64,000 nucleotides of DNA from Minisyncoccota bacterium (GCA_028714635.1 JAQTLZ010000001.1:79650-143649); one strand, 5' to 3'. Positions 296 through 56,790 are shown, counted from the stretch's first letter. The notes: a model not told the origin generated them from the letters alone. Program-made: numbers and translations.

Positions 296-2119
296 GTGAA
301 ATCAAGCTATAATAGAGACCAAGGAAATTGTATGCCGATTTTTTTTAACAAAATTCGCTCATTTTTTGGCGACACCACTCGTACGCAATGGGTAGTTTTT
401 GTGGCATTTGTTGTTTTTCTTTGCATCCATTTTTACCTCATGTCCCATGTGCTCTTTTTTGATTCGGGAGGATCGCTCCATAGCACTTTTTACGGCTATG
501 GCGACACCCCATATCACCTCACCCAAGTGACCAAATTTGGCTATAGTTCGCTCACAAATCTCAATGAACCGACATTTTTGGGAGAAAAACTTCACTATCC
601 ATTTTTCATCAATTTTCTAAGTGGAATGCTTGTGCGTATTACGGGTTCGCTCGTCTTCTCATTCCTTTTACCCGCGTACATTTTTATCTTTCTGAATGCT
701 TGTCTCGTCTATCAGATCTATAAAAAATGCATTGGAAAAGCGAGATACGCAGTTTTAGGACTTTTTATCTTTTTTCTCGGTACCGGATTTGCCGGATATG
801 GATTCTTGCAAAAAGCATATCAGGATAAAATGGGACCAGTAGCGCTTTTCGAATATCTTTCGCACAACAATCTTTCAACAACTGTCATATGGCAGGATGC
901 CTATCCAGAGCAGAGTGTTATCTTCGGAACTCCGATGGTGTTATCCTTTTTGCATCAAAGAGCGTTTCTTCCGGGACTTTTTGGTTTTTCTTTATTTCTT
1001 TTGTTGCTTATAAAGATGTGGCAGGAGAGGGGGCGGGTAAAACGTTCGCTAATAATCGCGACTGCGATAGTTTTTGGGATTCTGCCGATTATGCATACGC
1101 ATAGCTTTGTCTGTGCTTCGATTGTGTTCGGAGTTTTTGGACTTTTCTCACTTTTCTACAAAAGGTTCGATCTTTTCAAAAAATATCTTTTTATTGCTAT
1201 TTTGGGCGGACTTGTTGCTCTACCTCAGATCTGGTATCTCGTTGGAACCAAAACAGTTTTTAGTGCTAGCGCAACTTTTATCTCATACCGGCTTGGCTGG
1301 ATGAGCGAGCCGGCATTTGGAGGAATGAATTTTCCTACTGGCGCACCTCGCTCGATATTTTCATGGGTGTTTGTGCATTTCACCTTTCTTAATTTTGGTG
1401 CGATTCTTATTGCCTTTCTTCTCGCTTGGCTTTTGTATTTGCTTCGAAACCGGATGAATTTTGTTCGAGAGATTTTTTCTCGAGCCGAACTACCCATTTT
1501 ACTCGGATTCACTGGTCTCCTCATTTTTGTTATCGGACAGCTTTTCCGCTTTCAGCCGTGGGACTTCGATAACAATAAAATTTTCGAGTACTACCAATTT
1601 TTTGCCGTCCCATTTATCCTTTTTATACTTTCTAAAATATACGACAAGAAAAAAACTCTCGGAGTAGTTTTGCTGGTTATTTTTACAGTTCTTTCGATTT
1701 TTTCGGGTATTTTGGAGATAGTGCCAAGACTTATTAAAACAATTCCAGAAGAGCCGGTTATTTTTTCTCCCGCAGCTTTGCGTCTCGCGGATTTTATAAA
1801 AACAAATATTCCCGAGGGAGATCTTATCGTTACTGGCACGACTCATCTTAATCCTGTCGCTTCATTGGCGGGGAGAGGAGTCTTAGTTGGATATCCGGGA
1901 TGGCTTTGGACGCATGGGATTAATTACGGAGCGCGTGAGGAGGAGATAAAGAAGTTCTACGCTAATCCTTCCAAAAGCGATTTGGCGCAAAAATATAATG
2001 CAAAATATGCACTTTTCGATTCATGGTCTGTTTCAGATTTCAAAGCGGACAAGAAAAATTTCGATGCCCGCTTTCAGAAAGTATTCGAAGAGGGAGAGTA
2101 TACGCTTTATAAGATTTAG
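296..2119 (+). CDS. Polytopic membrane protein, probable GT-C fold glycosyltransferase (ArnT/PMT-like) with a C-terminal soluble domain
   Basis: 607-aa ORF with about 12 hydrophobic helices in the first ~450 aa followed by a hydrophilic C-terminal domain. It sits directly downstream of a GT2 polyprenyl-phosphate sugar synthase, a typical pairing. The call rests on architecture, not a motif match. Confidence 0.45.
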   Translation: MKSSYNRDQGNCMPIFFNKIRSFFGDTTRTQWVVFVAFVVFLCIHFYLMSHVLFFDSGGSLHSTFYGYGDTPYHLTQVTKFGYSSLTNLNEPTFLGEKLHYPFFINFLSGMLVRITGSLVFSFLLPAYIFIFLNACLVYQIYKKCIGKARYAVLGLFIFFLGTGFAGYGFLQKAYQDKMGPVALFEYLSHNNLSTTVIWQDAYPEQSVIFGTPMVLSFLHQRAFLPGLFGFSLFLLLLIKMWQERGRVKRSLIIATAIVFGILPIMHTHSFVCASIVFGVFGLFSLFYKRFDLFKKYLFIAILGGLVALPQIWYLVGTKTVFSASATFISYRLGWMSEPAFGGMNFPTGAPRSIFSWVFVHFTFLNFGAILIAFLLAWLLYLLRNRMNFVREIFSRAELPILLGFTGLLIFVIGQLFRFQPWDFDNNKIFEYYQFFAVPFILFILSKIYDKKKTLGVVLLVIFTVLSIFSGILEIVPRLIKTIPEEPVIFSPAALRLADFIKTNIPEGDLIVTGTTHLNPVASLAGRGVLVGYPGWLWTHGINYGAREEEIKKFYANPSKSDLAQKYNAKYALFDSWSVSDFKADKKNFDARFQKVFEEGEYTLYKI

Positions 2120-2124
2120 ATTGG

Positions 2125-3339
2125 ATGAAGAGTCTATTGCACTATCTAGCCGAAAAACACGAGATAATTGCAGCTTTTTTGCTTGTGATTATTTTGTCCG
2201 GCTATTTGTCATTTTTTTCACCCAAAGGACACTATGTTGTGCATGATTACACTTTTAGGATAGCGGAAGCTTTTACTCACGGTGAATTGGGAATTTCAGA
2301 GCGTCCATCCTGGCTTGGCGAACTTGTTCCGTTTCAAGGACAGTATTTTTCAGTGTTTCCTTTGGGAAGTGTTCTGGTGATGTTGCCTTGGGCTGTTCTT
2401 AAAAATTTTGATGTGATTCCTCATCAGCCAACGCAACCTCTTGTGGCAATTATCGGAATCCTTGTGACCCTATTTTCCTTTCTTCTTTGTGGTTTTTATG
2501 AGATGTCGATTTTTCGCCGTATTCTCTTTTCTTTATTTCCGATATTTGGAACATGGAGTTGGGCGAATCTTTCATTTGCCAGTTCATGGCAGTTAGCACT
2601 CGGCTTTGCGATGCTCGGCGAATTGGGAGCTCTTTATTTTACTTTTCGCAAAAAGCCTTTTTGGGCGGGGCTCTTTTTTGCACTCGCATTTGGGAATCGC
2701 ACTGAAATTATAATTACCCTGCCGATTTTTCTCTTTATTTTCTGGCGTCTATCAGATGCAACCTCACTCAAAGAGTTTCTCTGGGAGGTCGCTCCTTTTT
2801 TCTTCGTGCCCTTTGTTTTGGGAATGGCGACGTTAGGCTATAATTTTTTGAGATTTTCTTCTCCTCTTGATTTCGGGTATTCAAGAATTCCTGGAATTCT
2901 TGAAGAACCCGGATATCGTCATGGCTTCTTTTCCCTCTATGCTATACGTGAAAATTTTGAGCAGATGCTTATCCGTGGATGGAAACAAATTTCCTTTTTT
3001 CCTTATTTCATTCCAACCGGCTGGGGAGGATCTATATTTGTCTTTTGTCCTTTTCTTTTTCTTTTGTTCCGCAGAAACTCGAAGGACAAGATGATAAAAT
3101 GGTGCGCTTGGATTGCAATTTTTGTTCTGACTTTTATTCTTTGGATGCATGGAAACCCGGGTGGTTGGCAGGTTTCTTACAGATACGCAATGATTCTTAT
3201 TCCCTGGATGCTCGTTATCTTTCTTGAGAACGGGAAATCGAAACTTTCATGGGCGGAAATCGTCCTCTTCGCGGTTTCATTTTCCATTAGTGCCTACACT
3301 TTTTATGTTTTCAGCTGGACGAATCTTATGACCCCGTAG
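2125..3339 (+). CDS. Polytopic membrane protein, probable GT-C family glycosyltransferase (GT39/GT83-like)
   Basis: 404-aa ORF that is hydrophobic throughout. Its start is 6 nt after the stop of the previous membrane protein, so the two look like one operon. Confidence 0.45.
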   Translation: MKSLLHYLAEKHEIIAAFLLVIILSGYLSFFSPKGHYVVHDYTFRIAEAFTHGELGISERPSWLGELVPFQGQYFSVFPLGSVLVMLPWAVLKNFDVIPHQPTQPLVAIIGILVTLFSFLLCGFYEMSIFRRILFSLFPIFGTWSWANLSFASSWQLALGFAMLGELGALYFTFRKKPFWAGLFFALAFGNRTEIIITLPIFLFIFWRLSDATSLKEFLWEVAPFFFVPFVLGMATLGYNFLRFSSPLDFGYSRIPGILEEPGYRHGFFSLYAIRENFEQMLIRGWKQISFFPYFIPTGWGGSIFVFCPFLFLLFRRNSKDKMIKWCAWIAIFVLTFILWMHGNPGGWQVSYRYAMILIPWMLVIFLENGKSKLSWAEIVLFAVSFSISAYTFYVFSWTNLMTP

Positions 3340-13909: not shown

Positions 13910-14800
13910 TTGTGTATAATATCCTCCTATATGCCGCACATGTCTCTTCGCAGAAGAAGGCTCTATTTCTATTCTTTTTGCCTGATTTTTTTCGTGCTCA
14001 TCCCTGTTCTTGTTTTTTACGCGAATGGGTATAGGATCACCAAAGATTGGCAAGTCGCTGAAACGGGCGGTATTTATGTCTATGCTTCCGAAAGCAATGC
14101 AGACGTCTCTTTGAACGGAGTCCTCTTGCAGAAAAGTGGGATTTTTCAGAGGGGAACTTTTCTCGACGGTCTTACAGAAGGGAAGTATGAGATTTCAGTA
14201 TCAAAGGCAGATTTTTCTTCTTGGAAAAAAGATATTGAAGTGAAAGAAGGATTTGTTACGGAAGGACATCCGTTTCTTATTCCTTTGAATATTGAGCCCG
14301 TTCTGATCCCCGAATTTTCAACTTCCACAGCTACTAGCACAAAAATAAAAAATCCTGATTATGCCGATGCTCTGCTTCTTTTCCAAAAATCGCTGGTAAA
14401 GAAAACTCTCGCTACAACTACGTTGTCTTACGGAGAGGACGCTCTTCGAAATGGGAATCTTGTGGTTTTTGAGACAGGAACTCAATTACAGGCTGTCTGG
14501 CTTGGAGATACCAATTCGATGCCCTACTTTTTCTGTCATGCAGTTTTGTGCGGGACAGATACAAGCGCGACTTCCACTGTCTATACGAATGTTGTGCCGA
14601 AATCCCATCTTGAATTTTTGCCACGGCGTACCGATGTGGTGTTACTCGAAACAAAAGAGGGTATAGAGGCAGTTGAGCTTGATACGACATTTCCTCAAAA
14701 TGCAGTTTTGGTATATCCGACGAAGACAGCGGACTTTAGAGTTTCAAATGGCGTCATCTATTTAAAAGACGGTGCCAATATATCGAAGATAAATTTGTAA
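13910..14800 (+). CDS. Membrane-anchored PEGA-domain protein
   Basis: N-terminal TM helix. GIYVYASESNADVSLNGVLLQKSG...GKYEISVSKADFSSWKKDIEV is a PEGA-domain pattern. The start may lie at ATG 13931 or 13940. Confidence 0.5.
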   Translation: MCIISSYMPHMSLRRRRLYFYSFCLIFFVLIPVLVFYANGYRITKDWQVAETGGIYVYASESNADVSLNGVLLQKSGIFQRGTFLDGLTEGKYEISVSKADFSSWKKDIEVKEGFVTEGHPFLIPLNIEPVLIPEFSTSTATSTKIKNPDYADALLLFQKSLVKKTLATTTLSYGEDALRNGNLVVFETGTQLQAVWLGDTNSMPYFFCHAVLCGTDTSATSTVYTNVVPKSHLEFLPRRTDVVLLETKEGIEAVELDTTFPQNAVLVYPTKTADFRVSNGVIYLKDGANISKINL

Positions 14801-21232: not shown

Positions 21233-22468
21233 TTAGTACACAATCGGAATCGAGATTCTCAAAGTATTGTTATTCTCACTCGATTCTCGAATGTCTCGGT
21301 CTGGATCGAGAGTGATTGTCACTGGAGCGGTGTAATTTCCTCGATAGTCATAACGATAATCGTCGTATCTGTAATCGTCTGAATAATTCGTATCTAGATT
21401 ATCAAATCCGATCGTAATGATGATTCTCTCCCCAGGTCGCAGCGACGGCTGAAGATCTGATTCGAACGAGCTGTCAGCATTGGTAGGCAAGTCCGCATTG
21501 AACGCCCATCTTCCTGTTGCAGTCCCGCCATCATTTCTTACTTCGAATTGCACTCCAACTCTCTGGTTTGAATAAAGCTGTCCTGTTGGTCGAAATGCTC
21601 CGGTGTATGGATCGACAGTACCGATGCCGATGACTCGGATAGCGAGATCGGGCAAACCATTTCCGTAATAATTATTTGCAGGAGGATAATAGACATCATT
21701 ATTTCCGTAGTAAGCGTCTCCAGTCACGCTGAAATAAACAGTGCCCGCGTTATTATCCTTTCGTGATTCAGAGACAAGACCGCCTTCATCTACGCTTATC
21801 GTTACGGGCTGTCGTCCAGAACGAATATTGTCAAAACCGACGGTAATCTGCATTTTCTCTCCGGGTGCGAGTGAGCGCTCTGTTGGTGAAGAATAAGTAT
21901 CTTTTCCAGCTACAACTGGCATAAGCATACTGAATGCCCATGCTCCGCTTGCTCGTCCGCCGGCATTTTGCACTTCAAATCTTACTGCTGCACGCTCACT
22001 CGCGTCTATCGAAGGGCGAGTGACGAATACGTTTGTGTTTCGATCGATAACTCCAGTCGCGAGAATATATAAAACCAAATCAGCCCGCGTGTTTTGATTG
22101 TAGGCAGCGACGGGTGTTGGAGTCGGCGTATAGTCGGTGGTTCCAGAATTATCCGGATAAGAAACAACAGGAGCGGGGGTTGGTGTTGGAGTGCTTACAA
22201 TAATGACGGGGGTTGGTGTTGGTGTAGAAACTGCGGGAATAGGAGTCGCTTTCGGTTTGAAAATTTTAGAGACAGACACAGAAATAGAAGCAAGGCCAGA
22301 GAAAATAGAAGGGGCTAATCTGATCACTGCCCAGCTACCTACGATGATAAGGATAATAATCAGCCCAATTACTAGGGCTTTTTTGACAAATTCTCCCGTC
22401 CCACTCTTTTTTGGGGGCTCTTCGTGGAAATTTACCTCTACATCCGGCTTATGTTCGTCGTCTTCCAT
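21233..22468 (-). CDS. N-terminally anchored surface protein with a Pro/Thr linker and two CARDB-like domains
   Basis: TM helix at residues ~30-55. PTPTPV linker. Two ~110-aa repeats ending in ESRKDNN and ESSENNN (E-x-NE-xNN-like CARDB terminal motif), each with an internal FEVxNxGG. Confidence 0.65.
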   Translation of the reverse strand: MEDDEHKPDVEVNFHEEPPKKSGTGEFVKKALVIGLIIILIIVGSWAVIRLAPSIFSGLASISVSVSKIFKPKATPIPAVSTPTPTPVIIVSTPTPTPAPVVSYPDNSGTTDYTPTPTPVAAYNQNTRADLVLYILATGVIDRNTNVFVTRPSIDASERAAVRFEVQNAGGRASGAWAFSMLMPVVAGKDTYSSPTERSLAPGEKMQITVGFDNIRSGRQPVTISVDEGGLVSESRKDNNAGTVYFSVTGDAYYGNNDVYYPPANNYYGNGLPDLAIRVIGIGTVDPYTGAFRPTGQLYSNQRVGVQFEVRNDGGTATGRWAFNADLPTNADSSFESDLQPSLRPGERIIITIGFDNLDTNYSDDYRYDDYRYDYRGNYTAPVTITLDPDRDIRESSENNNTLRISIPIVY

Positions 22469-22559
22469 ATTTCACTATTATATGATAGTATCTATTCAAT
22501 GTCAACAGTCCGACAGCATGTTCTCGTTTTTGTGTCTGATTGTGTGCTATATTTAAAAA

Positions 22560-23225
22560 ATGTCATATCAAGAGAATAACATCGTCACAGGGAGTTCATT
22601 TAAGAACAAGCTTTTGTTTCTTGGAATATTTTTCGCTGTTTTTTTCGTATCGTTCGGCATTCTCTACGCCCTGGGGTTCATTCCTCTTGAGCTTGCACCG
22701 ACGAATGAAGAGCCGTCTCTGCCAAGCCCCACTGAAAGCGTTTCAGTTTCCGGGATGTCGCCAGCACCGACGGCCTCAATGGCTACGGGTGAAGAGCCGA
22801 TCCGCATTAAAATCCCAAATATTGGAGTTGATTCTCCAATACGAAATCCTTCGACTACCGATATTGACGCGCTCGATAACGAGCTTTTGAAAGGCGTTGT
22901 GCATTATCCAGGTTCGGGATATCTGGGGCAGGGGAATATGTTTCTCTTTGGCCATGGATCAAATCTTCCTGTTATCCATAATCAAGCCTTTAAAGTATTC
23001 ACCCAGATCAAGACTTTAAAACAAGGCGATGTAATTCATGTCCTCTCGCAGACCAAAGATTATTCGTACACTGTTTCTAAAGTAACTCTTGTGGATGCAA
23101 GCAAGGTGCTTGTGGAGTTTTCTACACAAAGAAAGATGCTTACGCTCTCGACTTGCGATACTTTTGGCACAAAACAACAGCGCTATGTCGTCGAAGCCGA
23201 TTTTTCTGGGAGCACTGATCTCTAA
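22560..23225 (+). CDS. Sortase-family transpeptidase
   Basis: N-terminal TM anchor. Catalytic His in MFLFGHGSN. TLSTCD = TLxTC active-site Cys motif. Downstream Arg (QQRYVVEA). Confidence 0.75.
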   Translation: MSYQENNIVTGSSFKNKLLFLGIFFAVFFVSFGILYALGFIPLELAPTNEEPSLPSPTESVSVSGMSPAPTASMATGEEPIRIKIPNIGVDSPIRNPSTTDIDALDNELLKGVVHYPGSGYLGQGNMFLFGHGSNLPVIHNQAFKVFTQIKTLKQGDVIHVLSQTKDYSYTVSKVTLVDASKVLVEFSTQRKMLTLSTCDTFGTKQQRYVVEADFSGSTDL

Positions 23226-23346
23226 AGTTCTTTTCTCGCCACGGGAGGCCGTATTCGAGGAGAGAGCTAAATACTTGACAATAGTATCTATATACTATAT
23301 AATACAAGAGTAAGGTAATTAATTGAGCTTAAAAACGGCTTGAATT

Positions 23347-25053
23347 ATGGCTTTTTTAGGCAATTTAACATTCATGAAAAACATTTTTTCAGTAAAAGAT
23401 ACTATGTCGAAAATTTTCGCAACAGCACTTATTTTTGTTGTGGTTTTTTCCGTGTTCGCTCCTTTCGTTGCGAAAGCGGATGATTATTATGATGGAGATT
23501 GGGGAACCACCTATGATGCTGACTGGGGTACTACTTACGATGCTGATTGGGGCACAACCTATGACGCTGACTGGGGTACCACCTATGACGCGGATTGGGG
23601 CACAACCTATGATGGTGACTATGGCACTACTTACGATGCTGATTGGGGCACCTCATACGATAATAATAATTATGATTCTGGTTGTGATGATTGTAATAAC
23701 ACCTATTACGATAATAATTATGACAATGGATGTTCAGACTGTAATTCTGGCTATTATGATAATTACGATTACGGCTGTTCTTCTAACTGTTACAGTCACA
23801 ACACTGGTTGTTCATACAATTGTTATCCACCGCCACCTCCTCCACCACGTCCGACTCCGCATCCTACTCCGCATCCAACACCAACTCCTGTTCAGAATCT
23901 TTCCGTTTATTGTGTAGCGAGTGATACAAATATCCGTGTAGGAGATTCCGTAACATGGAGAGCGAATGTTTCTGGCGGTAATGGCAATTACTCATACACT
24001 TGGAGCGGAGACGCTTCCGGTTCAGGCTCTAATGTTTCGAGAACATACAATAGTTCTGGAACTAAGCGTGCAACTGTTGAAGTACGATCTGGAAATCAGG
24101 TAGAAACTGCTTCTTGTACAACTTTCGTACAGGAGGAACAAAATGACCTAGACGCATATTGTGAAGCAACTCCGAATAATGCTGACCGAAATGAAACGGT
24201 TACTTGGAGGGTATTTCCTTCTGGAGGATCAGGTTCTTACTCCTACGATTGGAGCGGAGCTGTCACAGGAGATGGAAGGACTGAACAAGAATCATATTCA
24301 AGTTCTGGTACGAAACGAGCTACGGTAGAAGTGCGATCTGGAAATCAGACGATCACCCGAAGCTGTACCACGACTATAGAAAGAAATAATAACCGTGATC
24401 TCAACTTTACTTGTGAAGCCGATAGAAATAGCGCGCGAGTAGGCGAGACTGTCCGATGGACGGCTGACGTCGAAGGGGGCGATGGAGACTATGATTATTC
24501 ATGGAGAACATCTGATAATGTCGGTAGTAAGGATAACGAAACACTTCGTACTCGATACGATTCGACAGGAACGAAAAGAGTTTCTTTGACTGTAAGATCT
24601 AATGGAGACAGCGAAACTGAAGATTGTGGATCGGTATTTATTACAGGCACACTTGGAACATCTGTAACGGTGACCAGTATACCTACTGCTCCGCTTTCAT
24701 CTGCAGTTTATCTCTCCCAGGTTCCTTACACCGGTCTTGAGCTTTCTTGGAAGCTTGTCGGATTCGTTGGAGCTCTTATTCTCTGGAGTGCATGGATCGC
24801 ATACTTCATCTTCCGAAAGAAAGTGCTTCGCGATATTGCTAAAAATAGCGCACTCGTAAGCTCTCTCGAAGAGGAAGCTCGAAAAGAGAATGTGGTTGTA
24901 TCTCAAGATGCGATCGCTTCCATTATGAAGAAAGCAAAAGCTGAAAAGGCGATTGCAAGCGAAGTTCTTAAGCGAGTTATTGCGAAAGCAAAAGCCGTTT
25001 CAGGAAACGATTCTTGGATTGCTCTCTCGAAAGAAAAACTTAATAATCTCTAA
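23347..25053 (+). CDS. Secreted repeat protein: 8x DADWGTTY octapeptide, Cys/Tyr/Asp-rich region, poly-Pro linker, three PKD-like domains, and a C-terminal sorting-signal-like anchor with a cytoplasmic tail
   Basis: Signal peptide (MSKIFATALIFVVVFSVFAPFVAKA). The PKD-like units show W..W.GD..G.Y.Y.W.......YDSTGTKRVSLTVRS with a conserved Cys pair. C-terminal VPYTGLELSWKLVGFVGALILWSAWIAYFIFRKK plus 75 aa. The start may lie at 23377 or 23407. Confidence 0.65.
   Translation: MAFLGNLTFMKNIFSVKDTMSKIFATALIFVVVFSVFAPFVAKADDYYDGDWGTTYDADWGTTYDADWGTTYDADWGTTYDADWGTTYDGDYGTTYDADWGTSYDNNNYDSGCDDCNNTYYDNNYDNGCSDCNSGYYDNYDYGCSSNCYSHNTGCSYNCYPPPPPPPRPTPHPTPHPTPTPVQNLSVYCVASDTNIRVGDSVTWRANVSGGNGNYSYTWSGDASGSGSNVSRTYNSSGTKRATVEVRSGNQVETASCTTFVQEEQNDLDAYCEATPNNADRNETVTWRVFPSGGSGSYSYDWSGAVTGDGRTEQESYSSSGTKRATVEVRSGNQTITRSCTTTIERNNNRDLNFTCEADRNSARVGETVRWTADVEGGDGDYDYSWRTSDNVGSKDNETLRTRYDSTGTKRVSLTVRSNGDSETEDCGSVFITGTLGTSVTVTSIPTAPLSSAVYLSQVPYTGLELSWKLVGFVGALILWSAWIAYFIFRKKVLRDIAKNSALVSSLEEEARKENVVVSQDAIASIMKKAKAEKAIASEVLKRVIAKAKAVSGNDSWIALSKEKLNNL
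23494..23660 (+). repeat. Seven to eight tandem 24-bp coding repeats (GAYGCNGAYTGGGGNACNACNTAY)
   Basis: Read directly: gat/gac tggggnacnac(c/t)ta(t/c)ga(t/c)gc(t/g) iterated. Wobble positions differ between copies. Confidence 0.85.
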
Positions 25054-25054
25054 T

Positions 25055-25096
25055 TAAAAAAACCGCGCGACCCTTAAAGGTCGCGCGGTTTTTTGC
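25055..25096. terminator. Bidirectional intrinsic terminator between the repeat protein (+) and thrS (-)
   Basis: AAAAAAACCGCGCGACC-CTTAAA-GGTCGCGCGGTTTTTT is a perfect 11-bp stem with flanking A/T runs. Confidence 0.75.
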
Positions 25097-35397: not shown

Positions 35398-36300
35398 ATG
35401 GCCAATAGGCACCTTTCCAGAAGTATAGTGATGCAGTCCATGTTTGAAATGGATTTCAGAGGACTTCCTGCCTCTGATGCATCTGCCGTGCTCGAAAGAA
35501 ATGCCGAAGAGTTTGCCCCTGGGATGGGAGATTTTTCATTTATGAAATCTCTCACTCAGCATATTCTCGAAAAGAAAAAAGATATTGACGCGATTATTGA
35601 AAAAGCGGCGCCGGACTGGCCGATAGATAAAATTTCAATCGTAGATAGAAATATTCTCCGCATCGGACTTTACGAACTTCTTTTTTCAGATCGCGGAGAA
35701 GTGCCGGCAAAAGTTGCTATCAATGAATCGATCGAGCTTGCAAAAACATTCGGCGGAGAGACATCGGGCAAATTTGTAAACGGAGTCTTGGGCGCAGTTT
35801 ATAAAGAACTTGGTGAGCCGGGTAAAGACGAAACGTCAAAGAAGAAAAAAGACGAGGTGCCGGATGACAAAGCGCCCATTGAAAAGCTTGGCGGAGCAGT
35901 CGTCTATATGAAAAAGGGGAACCAGATGTATCTCGCTTTTGTCCACGATATTTTCAAACACTGGACGCTTTCGAAAGGTAAACTTGAATCGGGTGAGGAC
36001 GATGAAAAAGCAACTTGTCGAGAGATAAAAGAAGAAATGGGAGTCGATATTGATATCAAACAAAAACTTGGCGAGAATTCCTACATTACCTACAACAAAG
36101 AAAAGAAAAAGATTAGAAAATCAGTTGTTTATTTTCTCGCAGAATGCACTTCTCCGTTTGAAACTTTGAAATTGCAGAAACTTGGCGGGTTGGATGATGC
36201 AAAATGGTTTCCTCTTGAAAAAATCGGCGAGCTCACGCTCTACGATGATCTCGTTCCTATTATCACCAAAGCAGTGAATATCTTATTGAAGGCAAAATAA
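35398..36300 (+). CDS. NusB-like antitermination domain fused to a C-terminal NUDIX hydrolase domain
   Basis: N-terminus [19 protein letters not shown]...[10 protein letters not shown] is a NusB/RsmB-N pattern. C-terminus [23 protein letters not shown] fits the Nudix box Gx5Ex7REUxEExGU exactly. Confidence 0.7.
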
Positions 36301-39976: not shown

Positions 39977-41551
39977 ATGTTTTCACCTGCTATACAAAGG
40001 CTTGTAGACGATCTTAAGCACCAGTCGGGGAAAACTGGCTCTTTCGGTGGTTCTAGCGATGCTTTTATTAAGGTCAATAAATTAACGGGAAAAGCCGGCG
40101 CTTTTTATGAAAAAGTGCGCTATTTTGTTGATTATAAAGAAGAACATACGATTCGCCGTTCTGCAATCGAAAGAATCATCAAGCGAAAAGTGATGATCGA
40201 GATCGATAATAACGTCGGTCTTTCTCTTCTCGAAGAGTTGGTTGGCGGGGGATATTTGCCGAACGATCGCGTGGGCGCGGATGTTGCAAAAGACATTCAG
40301 CGAATCTTGAATAGATTTCTTATCGTCAAAAAACATATTGGCCCAAAACTGCTTCGGAATTTGAAATTAAAAAGCCGTCTCATTAATCTCGCAGCAACCG
40401 AAATAGATCTCTTCTTGTTTCCGCGTCCCAACGACAATCTTCTTGTCGAGGCTTTTTATTCGACTGTCAAAGGCTCAATAAAATATTCAGGCGAGCTTTC
40501 CAATATGCAATTCGGCAGACAACTTTATATTGCGTGCCGTCGCCTGCTTCTTCAAGATGATGATCCGACTGTCTTTTATGCGCTTTGGCTGAAATCTGTC
40601 CCGGAATGGCCGGTTATTTCCAGTGAAGCGGATTTGCAAAAACTGAACATCGATTTTTTCGTGCTCATCAAAAATATTATCCTTGAAATCGAAGATCCTA
40701 TCCGTTTTCAGATCCAAGCGAAGCTTCGAAATCACGGGCTCTATTTTTCGGTGCTCAAAGAAATTATCGATAAATACGGCGCTGAAAGCGAGCAGGTTTT
40801 GTCCGATAAGCACCATCTTGACGGCGATATTTCTGAAGTTCTCGATAAAAAATACAAAAAAGAAAATAACCGCATCAAAAAAAGCGGGAAGCGCGCTATC
40901 GTATATGTTTTTTGCACTAAAATCATTCTGGCATTTCTCCTTGAGTTGCCGTATGAACTTTTCTACATCCACTCTGTCAATTATGTTGCATTCGTAACTA
41001 ATATTCTTTTTCACCCGTTTCTCCTCTTTCTGATGACTAGAAATATAAAACCTCTCGGTGAGAAAAATACGAAAAAAATTACCGAGGGAATTCACAAGGT
41101 CCTCTATTCGAGCGATGTGAAGAAAATGTACGTAAAACCCTCAACATCCGGCATTCTTCTCGATACGACATTTTTCTTGCTTTACGGACTTCTTTTCCTT
41201 GTAAGTTTCGGCTGTATTTTGTGGGTCCTCCTGTCTCTCGGATTCAATGTTGTCGGTATTTTACTTTTCTTAACCTTCCTTACATTTGTCAGTTATTTCG
41301 GCCTGCGTATCCGCTACAATGCAGAAAGATGGAGGATTCGGGACGAAGACGAAAAAACCCTGACTCTTCTTTGGAATGTTTTTACTTTTCCGATCGTGCG
41401 AATGGGCAGATGGCTTTCTGTGAAATTTGCTTCAGTAAATGTCTTCGTCTTTGTGATGGATTTTCTTATTGAAGTGCCGTTCAAGCTTGTGCTCGCTACG
41501 TCAGACGGGTTTCTCTCATTCTTGAAAGAAAAACGCGACGAGACGTATTAA
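39977..41551 (+). CDS. Hypothetical protein, soluble N-terminal domain (~290 aa) plus a C-terminal multi-TM domain
   Basis: 524-aa ORF 42 nt after smc. At least five hydrophobic helices in the last 230 aa. No motif recognised. Confidence 0.45.
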   Translation: MFSPAIQRLVDDLKHQSGKTGSFGGSSDAFIKVNKLTGKAGAFYEKVRYFVDYKEEHTIRRSAIERIIKRKVMIEIDNNVGLSLLEELVGGGYLPNDRVGADVAKDIQRILNRFLIVKKHIGPKLLRNLKLKSRLINLAATEIDLFLFPRPNDNLLVEAFYSTVKGSIKYSGELSNMQFGRQLYIACRRLLLQDDDPTVFYALWLKSVPEWPVISSEADLQKLNIDFFVLIKNIILEIEDPIRFQIQAKLRNHGLYFSVLKEIIDKYGAESEQVLSDKHHLDGDISEVLDKKYKKENNRIKKSGKRAIVYVFCTKIILAFLLELPYELFYIHSVNYVAFVTNILFHPFLLFLMTRNIKPLGEKNTKKITEGIHKVLYSSDVKKMYVKPSTSGILLDTTFFLLYGLLFLVSFGCILWVLLSLGFNVVGILLFLTFLTFVSYFGLRIRYNAERWRIRDEDEKTLTLLWNVFTFPIVRMGRWLSVKFASVNVFVFVMDFLIEVPFKLVLATSDGFLSFLKEKRDETY

Positions 41552-54510: not shown

Positions 54511-56790
54511 GTGAAGTTTCTTTCTTCTACGGCGAAACGTATCTTTTTTCTTTCCATACTGATCCTTTTGGGAGCAACTTTTTTTGCGTTCGGTGCGTCT
54601 GCTTCTCACACGGATGGGACAATTGATTCTACAAACAAGTATGCGAAATTTTACGACACGAGTCTCGGAACTATAAATTTTGGCGTGATCGGTTCTACAA
54701 CGCCCTGTACGACAGATGTCGTGCATGTAACCGATACTCTCATTACAGGATGCGTGTGGGGAGACCGCGTGGGATGGATAAATCTGACACCACCTGGTTG
54801 CGGAGTAACAAACGATGGAGAAGGAAATTTGGGAAATGCTTGTCCGAGTGGTGGAGCCTGGGGGGAACAAACCGGATGGGTAAATTTTCATCCAACTTTC
54901 AGCGGGGTAGCGCCGGTGACCATTGACTCCAACGGAGATTTTAACGGATATGCGTGGAGCCAAAATTACGGCTGGATTGTTTTTAATAAAGCGACACACG
55001 ATTTGGGAGTGGGGAATTTTAAAGTTTCTACTGACTGGAGACCCGCGAGTGCCCGAGCATTTCAATGTAGTGATAGTACTGATAATGATGGAGACACGAT
55101 AATCGACTATCCGGATGATCCGGGTTGTTCGACTGGAATTGATGATGATGAAACTGATCCTGTTTCAACTCCAACTCCTTCGCCAACTCCAGGAGGTAGC
55201 AGCGGGGGCGGCAGTACACCGACTCCTACCCCCGTAGTTACTCCGACCCCCACCCCAACTCCGGTAGGTGAGACGCCGACCCCTACTCCATTTGGAGCAA
55301 CTCCGACACCGATAGGCGGAACTCCAACACCAACCCCAGGTCCCGATGAACCTACGCCAACTCCAATCGGAGCGACACCGACTCCTGGGCCAGGCGAAAC
55401 GCCGACACCAACAACATCAGGTGAGCCTGGAGTGACCCCAACTCCGGGTCCAGGGGCTCCGACGCCGACGTCAGAACCATTTTTCCCGCCTCTTGATCTC
55501 CCTCCGCTCCCTCCGCTTCCCCCTGCCGTACAGAATGCAATTGATGCTGGAGCAACTACTGTGAGAGAAGTAATCAAAACTCCTTCCGGCGGAGTGCTTA
55601 CTAAAGTATTGCCGACTGTCGGAGTTGTTACGGAAGCGGGTGCTGCAGCAGGGGCTGTTTTTGCGACACCTATTGTGTTTTCAGAGCTTATCTTTTTGCC
55701 TCTTCGATTATGGAGCCTCCTTCTCGGTTTCTTTGGTCTGAAAAAGAAAAAACGCCAGCCGTGGGGAGTCGTCTACGACTCAATAACCAAACAGCCTCTC
55801 GATCCCGCATACGTTGTTCTTGAGGACGGGAAGGGTGAGGAAATCACTTCGTCAATCACCGACCTCGATGGCCGTTATGGATTTTTGCTTGAGCCTGGAA
55901 CGTATAAACTGGTGGCAAATAAAACGAACTATACATTCCCTTCTAAGGCACTTGCAGGCAAGACAGAAGACGTTCTCTACAAAGACCTCTATTTCGGCGA
56001 GCCGATCGTTGTGGGCCAAGCGGGGGAGACGGTTACAAAAAATATTCCGCTCGACCCAATAAAATTCGACTTCAATGAATTTGCAAAAGGCAAGCAACAG
56101 CTTACGAAATTCTATTCAAAGCATGATGTTCTCATTCACAGAATTTCAAACATCTTTTTCTACGTCGGTCTTGTTATCGCTTTTGCCGCGCTTCTCGTTG
56201 CTCCAGAGCCTTACAATATTATTGTCTTCGTTGTGTACCTCTTTATGCTTGCTCTTAAATACTTTGTCTTCCGACCGACGCCGACTGGCAGTCTTATTGA
56301 TAAAGAAACCAAGTTTCCACTTTCATTTGCAATCGTTCGCGTGTTTTCTGTAAGCCTTGGTCGAGAGATGACGCATCGAGTTGCCGATATTCACGGCAGA
56401 TACTACTGTCTTGTTCCATTCGGGAACTACTACGTTACAGTTGAAAAGAAAAATGATGACGGAACATACACGAAAGTCTTCACTTCTCCAACCATTCAGG
56501 CAGGGAAGAGCGGAATGATCAAAGAGAGCTACACCATTTCAACTTCCGGAGTGCTGAAGGACCAAACTCCTCCTCCGCCCAACCCTCCAACAAATCCACC
56601 ATTACCTCCGCCGACCCCACCAACACCTACACCACCGACGACTCCGCCTGCACCACTAACTCCGGCTCCTGCCCCAGTTCCGCCAACGCCAGCTCCCGTA
56701 CCTCTCTATGCTGGAAATCCCGATCCAACAGTCCAAAACAAAATTCCACCAGCATCGAATCCGCCAATACCTCCAGCTCCTGCGGTCTAA
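54511..56790 (+). CDS. Large secreted/membrane protein: signal peptide, GW-motif N-domain, ~140-aa Pro/Thr linker, several TM helices, two carboxypeptidase-regulatory-like beta-sandwich domains, Pro-rich C-terminus
   Basis: [31 protein letters not shown]. Repeated GWINL/GWVNF/GWIVFN. The TPTPTP...PPLPPLPP linker. DLDGRYGF...[14 protein letters not shown] and [18 protein letters not shown] show the CarboxypepD_reg-like pattern. Confidence 0.6.

What the first reader, a model, noticed from the sequence alone, without database searches (positions are those of the whole stretch)
21233..25053. Sortase flanked by a CARDB surface protein and a PKD-like repeat protein: a compact cell-surface display module
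A sortase (TLSTCD, LFGH) lies divergently from a two-domain CARDB protein and directly upstream of a 568-aa multi-domain secreted protein. The latter ends in a sorting-signal-like arrangement: VPYTG, a 20-aa hydrophobic stretch, then RKK. This resembles the LPXTG-type architecture, but the VPYTG motif is non-canonical. Unusually, about 75 more cytoplasmic residues follow the positive anchor. Sortase substrates with atypical motifs and tails are poorly characterised in reduced-genome lineages.
Basis: partly seen in the sequence, partly recalled or inferred. Interest (0 to 1): 0.6.

Follow-up and report, generated by a model that had tools for sequence, protein, structure and literature searches.

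The report
Paceibacterial sortase cassette with tailed substrate
This is a real sortase gene with its cognate surface protein and a conserved partner, using a lineage-specific sorting signal (VYLSQVPYTG); unusually, that signal is followed by a conserved cytoplasmic domain that looks like part of a DNA clamp loader.

Summary
The window comes from a Paceibacterota (Parcubacteria, CPR) genome. It holds three adjacent genes: a membrane-anchored two-domain CARDB protein (21233-22468, minus strand), a sortase (22560-23225) and a 568-aa secreted PKD-like protein (23347-25053). The last ends in VPYTG, a 20-aa TM, RKK and a 76-aa tail.

The sortase has its His/Cys/Arg triad but fails every class A-F model cutoff.

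The C-terminal module is not a plain anchor:
- It defines a family of at least 209 protein clusters.
- Its motif is V-Y-L-S-Q-[VI]-P-Y-T-G, with P, T and G invariant.
- It is almost confined to Patescibacteria.

Of 80 module-bearing loci in species-representative genomes, 40 carry a sortase. In all 40 it lies just upstream on the same strand, and 33 of these also have the divergent CARDB gene. Some sortase-adjacent members have canonical 3-9 aa tails, which supports a true sorting signal.

The tail is conserved more strongly than the ectodomain. It is homologous to the first domain of longer tails in relatives. Models of those longer tails match clamp-loader domains II and III (lid and collar) without the ATPase.

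No Pfam or NCBIfam model and no paper in the searched library describes this. Cleavage, the attachment target and the tail's function are all inferred. Verdict: a new variant of a known kind.

The parts
21233..22468 (-). CARDB partner protein (411 aa). It has a cytoplasmic N-terminus, a TM anchor (residues 31-56; 22301-22378), a Pro/Thr-rich linker (22100-22255), and two CARDB domains (21719-22084 and 21236-21652). It has no C-terminal sorting signal.
   Evidence: Pfam CARDB scores 51.6 bits with 2 stretches. A divergent CARDB gene lies 23-164 bp upstream of the sortase in 33 of 40 loci and neighbours the sortase in 8 of 8 loci sampled from the sortase side. All 36 partners examined have an N-terminal TM.
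22477..22505 (-). Consensus sigma-70-like promoter (TTGACA-17-TATAAT, 12/12) for the CARDB gene. The -10 element ends 9 nt before the ATG.
   Evidence: This is a consensus match only; function is not shown.
22560..23225 (+). Sortase (221 aa). It has an N-terminal TM anchor (22611-22682) and a catalytic domain (22800-23222), with His in LFGH (22944-22955), Cys in TLSTCD (23142-23159) and Arg in QQRYVV (23175-23192).
   Evidence: Pfam Sortase scores 81.6 bits. NCBIfam generic TIGR01076 scores 43.9 against a cutoff of 39.35, and every class model is far below cutoff. The best PDB match is 2kw8, B. anthracis SrtA, at E 9e-10. There are 246 homologues, and those that carry an organism name are Paceibacterota, Taylorbacteria or Patescibacteria.
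23275..23303 (+). Consensus sigma-70-like promoter (12/12) upstream of the substrate gene.
   Evidence: This is a consensus match only.
23347..25053 (+). Sortase-substrate candidate (568-aa ORF; the likely start is 23374 or 23404). Its parts, in order:
- signal peptide, to 23478
- seven YDADWGTT repeats (23488-23658)
- Cys-rich segment (23674-23826)
- Pro-rich linker (23827-23889)
- three PKD/SprB-like domains (23890-24129, 24145-24378, 24397-24642)
- stalk (24643-24705)
- C-terminal module (listed separately)
24706..24735 (+). Extended sorting motif VYLSQVPYTG. The pentapeptide VPYTG is at 24721-24735, and the predicted cleavage site is between T and G.
   Evidence: Composition over 145 family members is V88 Y68 L99 S90 Q66 [V68/I28] P100 Y89 T100 G100. 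Cleavage is inferred, not shown.
24754..24822 (+). Stop-transfer TM helix (LVGFVGALILWSAWIAYFIF, 24754-24813) followed by RKK (24814-24822).
   Evidence: Hydropathy is about 2.0-2.3. The helix is modelled at pLDDT 86-95. Conserved TM positions are F84, L71, W73, S83 and Y72.
24823..25050 (+). Cytoplasmic tail (76 aa). A short linker is followed by a lid-like alpha/beta mini-domain (about 24853-25050; strand-helix-helix-strand-helix).
   Evidence: - Identity to orthologues is 74-95%, against 57-88% for the PKD region.
- The AF2 model has pLDDT 81.6.
- Foldseek top hits are RuvB and RFC lid domains: 65 columns, 2.0-2.5 A, probability 0.9 or more, but E 0.6-1.
- The profile against PDB hits the RFC4/5 lid at E 0.024-0.075.
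- hhalign to the first domain of the two-domain tails gives probability 96.7 and E 3.9e-10.
- Those two-domain tails match clamp-loader domains II+III at Foldseek E 2e-4.
25057..25094 (+). Intrinsic-terminator-like hairpin (16-bp stem plus T run) between the substrate gene and the convergent thrS.

Best explanation
This is a chromosomally fixed, lineage-specific sortase cassette of Paceibacteria.

Proposed pathway:
1. The 568-aa protein is exported through Sec by its N-terminal signal peptide.
2. It is held in the membrane by its C-terminal TM helix, with RKK and the 76-aa tail on the cytoplasmic side.
3. The adjacent membrane-anchored sortase recognises the extended signal VYLSQVPYTG just outside the membrane.
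4. The sortase cleaves between Thr and Gly and transfers the PKD-like ectodomain to an envelope nucleophile, most simply the peptidoglycan precursor.
5. A fragment of about 105 residues stays in the membrane: Gly, the TM helix, RKK and an AAA+-lid-like domain. Because it is conserved more strongly than the ectodomain, this fragment (or the uncleaved precursor) has a function of its own.

The divergently transcribed CARDB protein is a constant N-terminally anchored companion of the sortase.

Shown here:
- the genes and motifs
- the intact catalytic triad
- family-wide invariance of P, T and G
- strict positional linkage of module and sortase
- orthologous substrates with canonical short tails
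- conservation of the tail, and its homology to the clamp-loader-like tails of relatives

Inferred:
- cleavage at T|G
- the acceptor
- the topology (from the signal peptide and the positive-inside rule)
- any function of the tail
For: Sortase
- It is a bona fide sortase with His, Cys and Arg and an N-terminal anchor.

Module family
- There are 209 clusters at E<1e-3. Of the top 149, 145 carry L[STN]x[VIL]PxTG, then a TM, then K/R.
- P, T and G are at 100% and Y at 89%. These are the positions a sortase reads.
- The module sits on varied ectodomains, as a portable signal should.

Linkage
- The motif scan of 185,579 species genomes gave 149 confirmed loci. The records that name a lineage name Patescibacteria lineages, many are labelled only 'uncultured bacterium', and one 2-kb contig sits in a Bacteroidia bin.
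- Forty of the 80 fetched loci have a sortase. In all 40 it is on the same strand and upstream. None of the other 40 loci has one.
- Starting from the sortase, 7 of 8 distinct loci have the module gene downstream.
- Several genomes have two or more module genes.

Canonical forms
- Six sortase-adjacent substrates have tails of only 3-9 aa.

Known motif range
- [VI]PxTG is an established sortase signal type (PMC5640630).

Cell wall
- A cell wall is likely. The window has an SLT_2 lytic transglycosylase, and one related cassette has a YkuD L,D-transpeptidase.

Tail
- The tail is constrained: 74-95% identity against 57-88% for the PKD region.

Precedent
- A sortase remnant peptide is sensed by a histidine kinase in S. 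gordonii (PMC11326707).
Against: - There is no biochemical evidence of cleavage or attachment for any member of this family.
- No known sortase substrate has a folded cytoplasmic domain after the signal. Discarding a conserved domain looks wasteful and could mean that tailed members are not cleaved.
- The TM helix has unusually conserved residues (F, L, WS, Y), which is not typical of sorting signals. Part of this may be search bias, because hits were selected by similarity to this module.
- Neither the LPXTG-anchor HMM nor any class-specific sortase HMM recognises these proteins.
- One sortase-first locus (L090) has no module gene within 5 kb.
- The lid assignment for the window's own short tail is individually weak (Foldseek E 0.6-1; profile E 0.02-0.07). 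It rests on transitive homology to the longer tails.
Confidence: 0.7

Rival explanations
1. The protein is an uncleaved type-I membrane receptor or adhesin. The PKD-like ectodomain stays joined through the TM helix to the cytoplasmic lid-like domain. VYLSQVPYTG would then be a structural or sortase-docking juxtamembrane motif, and the protein would act by coupling outside events to the cytoplasm or by oligomerising.
For: - The TM and tail are conserved more than the ectodomain.
- The TM residues are conserved.
- Tails are folded domains with confident models.
- No precedent is known for a sortase signal followed by a domain.
Against: - P, T and G are invariant in tailed and tail-less members alike.
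- Orthologous sortase-adjacent proteins exist with 3-9 aa tails, which can only be classical signals.
- The strict sortase adjacency would be left unexplained.
Confidence: 0.13
2. The sortase joins the PKD-like protein to another protein rather than to peptidoglycan. The target could be the constant CARDB partner, or the substrate itself in a pilus-like polymer. The product would be a covalent surface assembly anchored by the CARDB protein's N-terminal TM.
For: - The CARDB gene neighbours the sortase even more constantly than the substrate does: 33 of 40 motif-first loci and 8 of 8 sortase-first loci.
- Sortase-adjacent substrates are typical of pilus islands.
- CPR envelopes are poorly understood (PMC5220378).
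Against: - The sortase lacks class C features. It has no C-terminal TM and no DPW-type lid, and the class C HMM scores 40 bits against a cutoff of 160.
- There is no conserved lysine in the C-terminal CARDB domain, and the window's copy has no lysine at all there.
- No pilin-motif-like element was seen.
- There is only one sortase per locus.
Confidence: 0.1
3. The arrangement is a chance resemblance: an ordinary C-terminal TM anchor that happens to be preceded by xPxTG, next to an unrelated sortase.
For: Pentapeptides of the form xPxTG are short. An unrelated DPYTG occurs inside the CARDB protein and is not conserved in orthologues.
Against: There are hundreds of homologous modules with an invariant motif and consistent linkage to the sortase across many genomes.
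Confidence: 0.02

Closest known systems
Housekeeping-type sortases (class A/D/E) with LPXTG-type cell-wall sorting signals of Gram-positive bacteria
   Same: - Cys transpeptidase fold with the His/Cys/Arg triad and an N-terminal membrane anchor.
- The substrate has an N-terminal signal peptide and a C-terminal xPxTG, hydrophobic helix and basic residues.
- There are several substrates per genome.
- The closest solved relatives are B. anthracis SrtA and SrtD.
   Different: - The sortase fails all class-specific HMM cutoffs.
- The signal is a 10-residue signature, VYLSQ[VI]PYTG, with a near-invariant Tyr at the 'X' position.
- The TM helix is sequence-conserved.
- Most sortase-adjacent substrates carry a folded cytoplasmic domain of 60-345 aa after the basic residues.
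- A CARDB membrane protein is a constant divergent neighbour.
- The host is a CPR bacterium.
Pilus islands with class C sortases (e.g. S. pneumoniae RrgA/B/C with YPRTG/IPQTG/VPDTG; PMC5640630)
   Same: The sortase is encoded next to its substrate. The motifs are V/I-P-x-T-G. The substrates are Ig-like multi-domain proteins.
   Different: There is no class C lid or C-terminal TM, no pilin motif, and only a single sortase. The neighbour is N-terminally anchored rather than a pilin with a sorting signal.
Clamp-loader subunits (E. coli gamma/tau, delta, delta'; B. subtilis delta; RFC), domains II (lid) and III (collar)
   Same: The two-domain tails of family members superpose on lid plus collar over their whole length: 185-196 columns, Foldseek E 2e-4 to 1e-3, probability 1.00, with the best TM score of 0.58 to E. 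coli delta (1jqj_C). The window's tail is homologous to the lid-like first domain.
   Different: - There is no ATPase domain I, so no Walker motifs.
- The domains are tethered to the membrane behind a sorting signal.
- Sequence similarity is only borderline.
- The window's protein has the lid-like domain only.
Sensing of the sortase remnant peptide ('C-pep') by a histidine kinase in Streptococcus gordonii (as summarised in PMC11326707)
   Same: The membrane fragment left after sortase cleavage has a biological role of its own.
   Different: There the remnant is just the TM and a short tail, sensed within the membrane. Here the remnant would carry a folded cytoplasmic domain, and no kinase partner is evident.
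Sorting-signal / sorting-enzyme pairs discovered in silico (PEP-CTERM/exosortase, PGF-CTERM/archaeosortase, MYXO-CTERM/myxosortase; 10.1101/2023.06.07.544157)
   Same: A lineage-restricted C-terminal signature, TM and basic cluster, found on many otherwise unrelated proteins and linked to a cognate processing enzyme by gene neighbourhood.
   Different: The enzyme here is a classical sortase, not an exosortase or archaeosortase. The signal is frequently not at the C-terminus, because a domain follows it.

Membership tests
Sortase superfamily (PF04203 / TIGR01076) | HMM score above the curated cutoff | tested here: met
   PF04203 scores 81.6 bits against 26.6. TIGR01076 scores 43.9 against 39.35.
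Sortase superfamily (PF04203 / TIGR01076) | Catalytic His, Cys (TLxTC) and Arg | tested here: met
   LFGH at 129-132, TLSTCD at 195-200, and R in QQRYVV at 206-211. They align with B. anthracis SrtA.
Sortase classes A-F (NCBIfam class models) | Score above the class-specific cutoff | tested here: not met
   Scores against cutoffs: SrtD 53.7/140; class D 49.6/165; class E 44.9/160; class C 40.1/160; class F 25.1/166; class B 14.1/153.75; marine GN 25.2/158. No class A model appeared in the hit list.
Class C (pilus) sortase | C-terminal TM anchor and a lid (DPW-type) over the active site | tested here: not met
   The sequence ends 10 residues after the catalytic Arg with no hydrophobic segment. 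No DP[WFY] lies upstream of the catalytic domain (read).
LPXTG cell-wall anchor domain (TIGR01167 / PF00746) | HMM match to the C-terminal region | tested here: not met
   There was no hit even at E<=10 for three family C-termini.
Cell-wall sorting signal (functional definition) | Tripartite xPxTG, hydrophobic helix and basic residues on a protein with a signal peptide | tested here: met
   The arrangement is conserved in 145 of 149 relatives.
Cell-wall sorting signal (functional definition) | The signal lies at the extreme C-terminus (tail of a few residues) | tested here: not met
   The window's protein has a 76-aa tail. It is met in some orthologues: 10 of the 80 loci have tails of 12 aa or less.
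Cell-wall sorting signal (functional definition) | Cleavage between T and G, and amide linkage to peptidoglycan | not testable with these tools
   This needs biochemistry or proteomics.
Cognate sortase-substrate pair | Non-random gene linkage and co-distribution | tested here: met
   Forty of 80 loci have a sortase, all in the same orientation. Seven of 8 sortase-first loci have the module downstream. A whole-genome co-occurrence profile was not tested.
CARDB (PF07705) | HMM above cutoff | tested here: met
   51.6 bits against 22.7, with two stretches.
PKD / SprB-repeat Ig-like domains | HMM above cutoff | tested here: met
   PKD_4 scores 33.7 against 27. SprB scores 35.8 against 28. PF00801 at 19.3 is below its 23.5 cutoff.
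AAA+ / clamp-loader subunit | ATPase domain I with Walker A/B | tested here: not met
   The tail has only 76 residues, and no P-loop family hit was found.
AAA+ / clamp-loader subunit | Lid (domain II) fold in the window's tail | tested here: inconclusive
   Foldseek top hits are all lids, but at E 0.6-1. The profile hits the RFC4/5 lid at E 0.024-0.075. The link to the long tails is strong.
AAA+ / clamp-loader subunit | Lid plus collar (domains II+III) in the long-tailed relatives | tested here: met
   Foldseek E 2e-4 to 1e-3, probability 1.00, covering the whole model. This is structural similarity of a predicted model, not proven homology. Sequence-level hits are not significant.
CPR Pam pilus (PamR, NF058578) | HMM above cutoff | tested here: not met
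   13.2 bits against a cutoff of 300, E 0.03. The Pam system uses chaperone-mediated donor-strand exchange, not a sortase (10.64898/2026.03.03.709456).

The most novel reading that the evidence does not exclude
In Paceibacteria, sortase processing may do two things at once. It displays an adhesin-like ectodomain, and it releases or unmasks a membrane-tethered cytoplasmic module derived from the clamp-loader lid (plus collar in relatives). That remnant would then act inside the cell, for example by docking to an AAA+ or clamp-loader partner or by oligomerising through the collar. Surface display or host contact would then be coupled to a cytoplasmic process such as replication or proteolysis. 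This would be a previously undescribed class of sorting signal, one with a functional cytoplasmic domain, in a lineage whose cell biology is almost unknown.
Probability: 0.25. Interest if true: 0.85.

Novelty: new variant of a known kind. Interest (0 to 1): 0.62.

Why it matters
Sortases are present in more than half of CPR bacteria (PMC6744442), but their substrates and signals there have not been defined. This locus yields several things.

- It gives a concrete, family-wide sorting signal (VYLSQ[VI]PYTG plus a conserved TM) and a conserved three-gene cassette. These can be used to annotate the surface proteome of Paceibacteria, organisms thought to live by attaching to other cells.
- The conserved clamp-loader-like domain behind the signal has no counterpart in textbook sortase biology. 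It offers a directly testable handle on how these ultra-small cells might link their surface to the cytoplasm.
- The extended motif and its cognate enzyme could also be of interest as an orthogonal sortase-ligation pair.

Tried and rejected
- A word-indexed search with the C-terminal 135 aa found only the identical fragment. With the profile A1 it found only 15 proteins. The exhaustive HMMER search was needed.
- Pfam and NCBIfam at E<=10 have no model for the module or for either tail domain.
- The faint PamR 'CPR pilus' hit (E 0.03) was followed into the literature and rejected. That system is sortase-independent.
- Class C or pilus reading: rejected on architecture and HMM scores.
- CARDB as a lysine acceptor: no conserved Lys, and none in the window's C-terminal CARDB domain. 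This is not excluded for other residues.
- The internal DPYTG in the CARDB protein is not conserved in orthologues, so it is chance.
- Genes inserted between the sortase and the substrate in some relatives are unrelated secreted proteins or an IS element.
- Sequence-profile searches of the two-domain tail against PDB gave nothing significant.
- Literature searches for PYTG with sortase, and for sortase with Patescibacteria or Parcubacteria, found no description of this system.

Full report
OBSERVATION

The three ORFs are present exactly as described.

The minus-strand ORF 21233-22468 (411 aa) matches Pfam CARDB twice (51.6 bits). It has an N-terminal TM segment followed by a Pro/Thr-rich linker, and it has no C-terminal hydrophobic segment.

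ORF 22560-23225 (221 aa) is a sortase. Pfam gives 81.6 bits, and the generic NCBIfam sortase model is above cutoff. It has an N-terminal anchor and the LFGH, TLSTCD and QQRYVV elements that supply the His/Cys/Arg triad. Its nearest solved relatives are B. anthracis SrtA (2kw8, E 9e-10) and SrtD (2ln7).

ORF 23347-25053 (568 aa) has, in order:
- a signal peptide
- seven YDADWGTT repeats, encoded by a 24-nt tandem repeat
- a Cys-rich stretch
- a proline linker
- three PKD/SprB-like domains
- the C-terminal arrangement VYLSQVPYTG, six residues, a 20-aa hydrophobic helix, RKK, and 76 further residues

The real start is probably M10 or M20 rather than the first ATG. No other ORF in the window has this kind of C-terminus.

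The surrounding genes are core housekeeping genes: gyrB, def, thrS, dnaE, pheST, rpoB, carAB, an SMC-family ATPase and an RNB-family exoribonuclease. Base composition is uniform, so this is not an island. Protein names from the sources place the organism in Candidatus Paceibacterota (Parcubacteria, CPR).

CLASSIFYING THE SORTASE

Every class-specific NCBIfam model scores far below its cutoff:
- SrtD 53.7 against 140
- class D 49.6 against 165
- class E 44.9 against 160
- class C 40.1 against 160
- class F 25.1 against 166
- class B 14.1 against 154

The architecture is an N-terminal anchor with no C-terminal TM and no DPW-type lid. That is housekeeping-like, not pilus-like. The enzyme belongs to a large clade of 246 homologues. 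The members that carry an organism name are Paceibacterota, Taylorbacteria or Patescibacteria, and most carry no name.

IS THE C-TERMINUS A SORTING SIGNAL OR A PLAIN ANCHOR?

Synteny. The trio CARDB(-), sortase(+), PKD-protein(+), flanked by gyrB and thrS, is conserved in relatives whose sortases are 90, 77, 66 and 52% identical. It is also conserved, downstream of a different set of upstream genes, in a Taylorbacteria-like genome at 47%. In all of these the downstream protein ends in [AF][VI]YLSQ[VI]PYTG, a TM and basic residues.

Family size and motif. An exhaustive phmmer search with the C-terminal 134 aa against 1.84 billion representatives gave 209 hits at E<1e-3. Of the top 149, 145 have L[STN]x[VIL]PxTG followed by a hydrophobic helix and K/R residues. 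The pentapeptide counts are VPYTG 97, IPYTG 26, LPYTG 6 and IPATG 6, with a few others. Position-specific composition over 145 members is V88 Y68 L99 S90 Q66 [V68/I28] P100 Y89 T100 G100. The three invariant residues are exactly those a sortase reads in LPXTG. The module sits on varied ectodomains, as a portable signal should.

Distribution. A scan of one genome per species (185,579 species) with V[YAF]L[ST][QDE][VI]PYTG found 207 stretches, of which 149 were confirmed. The records that name a lineage name Paceibacterota, Taylorbacteria, Campbellbacteria, Parcubacteria, Minisyncoccia or Saccharibacteria (the last in binchicken MAG labels). Many are labelled only 'uncultured bacterium' or 'bacterium'. 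The exception is one 2-kb contig in a Bacteroidia bin, which is likely mis-binned. Several genomes have two or more loci.

Linkage to the sortase. In the 80 loci fetched, a sortase HMM hit (E<1e-58) is present in 40. In all 40 it is on the same strand and upstream of the module gene, and there is none anywhere in the other 40 loci. In 33 of the 40, a CARDB gene lies divergently 23-164 bp upstream of the sortase. Sampling from the sortase side, 7 of 8 distinct loci have a PYTG or PDTG module gene downstream, and 8 of 8 have the CARDB neighbour.

Canonical forms. Six sortase-adjacent substrates have tails of only 3-9 aa after the basic residues, which is a textbook sorting signal.

Conclusion. 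Together these results meet the usual in-silico standard for a cognate enzyme-signal pair, and they refute the 'plain TM anchor' alternative. [VI]PxTG is already an accepted sortase motif type (RrgC VPDTG, RrgB IPQTG; PMC5640630). The novelty lies in the extended signature and the near-invariant Tyr, not in the pentapeptide as such. The LPXTG-anchor HMMs do not see it.

THE TAIL

Across orthologues the C-terminal module is more conserved than the ectodomain, and as conserved as the sortase:

| Orthologue (sortase identity) | N-terminal repeats | PKD | Stalk+motif | TM | Tail |
|---|---|---|---|---|---|
| L002 (76%) | 51 | 57 | 86 | 90 | 83 |
| L004 (63%) | 37 | 67 | 82 | 86 | 74 |

Family-wide, tails fall into four classes:
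- 12 aa or less
- about 20-45 aa, with an I..FK..NL motif
- about 60-130 aa (the window's type)
- 200 aa or more

Sortase-adjacent genes mostly carry the two long classes (27 of 40). Sortase-distal genes mostly carry the roughly 30-aa class (22 of 40).

An AlphaFold2 model of the window's module (24-sequence alignment, pLDDT 81.6) shows the TM helix continuing into the cytoplasm, followed by a compact strand-helix-helix-strand-helix unit.

Evidence that this unit is lid-like:
- Foldseek against PDB returns almost only AAA+ lid domains (RuvB, RFC, RuvBL), with about 65 columns at 2.0-2.5 A and probability 0.9 or more. The E-values are non-significant (0.6-1), as expected for so small a domain.
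- Independently, the sequence profile hits the lid region of RFC4/RFC5 at E 0.024-0.075.
- NCBIfam gives a RuvB lid-region hit at E 0.06.

The 200-aa-plus tails add a second conserved helical domain. A model of lid plus second domain (14 sequences, pLDDT 87.6) matches clamp-loader subunits over its entire length: 185-196 columns, E 2e-4 to 1e-3, probability 1.00. The best TM score is 0.58 at 5.0 A to E. coli delta (1jqj_C). E. coli gamma/tau, B. subtilis delta and RFC subunits also match. In other words, it resembles domains II (lid) and III (collar) without the ATPase domain.

MECHANISM

The best-supported reading has four steps:
1. Sec export of the protein.
2. Stop-transfer by the C-terminal helix, with RKK and the tail in the cytoplasm.
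3. Recognition of VYLSQVPYTG by the adjacent sortase, and cleavage at T|G.
4. Transfer of the ectodomain to the envelope.

Peptidoglycan is the simplest acceptor. The window encodes an SLT-type lytic transglycosylase, and one related cassette includes a YkuD L,D-transpeptidase.

The remnant (Gly, TM, RKK and lid-like domain) would stay in the membrane. Its conservation argues that it, or the precursor, does something. The S. gordonii case, where the sortase remnant peptide is sensed by a kinase, shows that remnants can be functional (PMC11326707).

What the tail does is unknown. Candidates are docking to an AAA+ or clamp-loader-type partner, oligomerisation (the collar domain mediates ring assembly in clamp loaders; established knowledge), retention or positioning of the precursor, or marking the remnant for turnover.

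The CARDB protein is an N-terminally anchored, constant companion of the sortase. There is no conserved lysine in its C-terminal domain to suggest it acts as an acceptor, and its role is open. Consensus promoters precede both the CARDB gene and the substrate gene, and a strong hairpin terminator follows the substrate gene.

RIVALS

- An uncleaved type-I receptor. This is favoured by the conserved TM and tail. It is disfavoured by motif invariance, by the canonical short-tailed orthologues and by the sortase linkage.
- Protein-protein ligation or polymerisation. This is favoured by the constant CARDB neighbour. It is disfavoured by the lack of class C features and of a conserved acceptor lysine.
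- Chance. This is refuted.

COMPARISON AND NOVELTY

The system works like a Gram-positive housekeeping sortase with LPXTG substrates, and it is a member of the sortase superfamily. It does not meet membership of any sortase class A-F, or of the LPXTG-anchor domain family, by their HMMs.

No Pfam or NCBIfam model covers the signal or the tail domains. The paper library yields no description of a PYTG signal, of this cassette, or of sortase signals followed by cytoplasmic domains. The literature records only that sortases are common in CPR (PMC6744442, PMC5220378).

I rate it a new variant of a known kind. The sorting-signal part is a solid, moderately surprising extension. The clamp-loader-like cytoplasmic module behind a sortase signal is the surprising element, and it makes a question about surface-to-cytoplasm coupling in CPR bacteria experimentally approachable.

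Noticed in passing
window 23488-23652: A 24-nt tandem repeat (6.9 copies) encodes YDADWGTT repeats at the mature N-terminus of the substrate. Orthologues carry different aromatic/Asp/Asn/Gly-rich units (e.g. NADYGTTY, YNTSASDYNN, YDYGSYGND), so this tip evolves fast while the C-terminus is nearly fixed.
   Followed up: partly
window 22477-22505 (-) and 23275-23303 (+): There are two perfect 12/12 sigma-70 consensus promoters (TTGACA-17-TATAAT). The minus-strand one ends 9 nt before the CARDB ATG, implying a nearly leaderless mRNA. The plus-strand one gives the substrate gene its own promoter, separate from the sortase.
   Followed up: no
window 25057-25094: A strong hairpin (16-bp stem, 9 G-C pairs) with a T run lies between the convergent substrate gene and thrS. 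The stem itself begins with an A run on the upstream side, so it could terminate in both directions.
   Followed up: no
window 35398-36300: A single 300-aa ORF combines a NusB domain (residues 7-136) with a NUDIX hydrolase domain (183-280), which is an unusual fusion.
   Followed up: no
window 296-2119, 2125-3339, 13910-14800, 39977-41551: Four sizeable ORFs (607, 404, 296 and 524 aa) have no Pfam hit at E<=1e-5. The 607-aa one has hydrophobic segments. ORF 54511-56790 (759 aa) has a CarboxypepD_reg domain plus TM segments and may be another envelope protein.
   Followed up: no
window 21581-21595 (CARDB residues 292-296): An internal DPYTG pentapeptide sits in the second CARDB domain. It is not followed by a TM and is not conserved in orthologues, so it is judged a chance match.
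   Followed up: yes
L091 6906-7952: In a distant relative (sortase 38% identical), a YkuD-type L,D-transpeptidase gene sits between the sortase and a VYLSQVPDTG-bearing PKD protein. This ties the cassette to peptidoglycan chemistry.
   Followed up: partly
L066, L074, L077, L081, L084, L088 (between sortase and module gene): One subclade has a conserved secreted, Cys-containing protein of 314-361 aa with no recognised motif, inserted between the sortase and the substrate gene. In L012 the same position holds an IS-type transposase.
   Followed up: partly
sortase-distal loci, e.g. L017, L018, L021, L023, L031, L042: Module-bearing genes that lie away from the sortase mostly carry a cytoplasmic tail of about 30 aa with a conserved I..FK..NL amphipathic motif (22 of 40 loci). 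This is a third, unexplained tail type.
   Followed up: partly
L090 4188-5591: One genome keeps the divergent CARDB-sortase pair but has recR and a type IV pilin-like Laminin_G_3 protein downstream instead of a module gene. This shows that CARDB-sortase is the most constant unit.
   Followed up: partly
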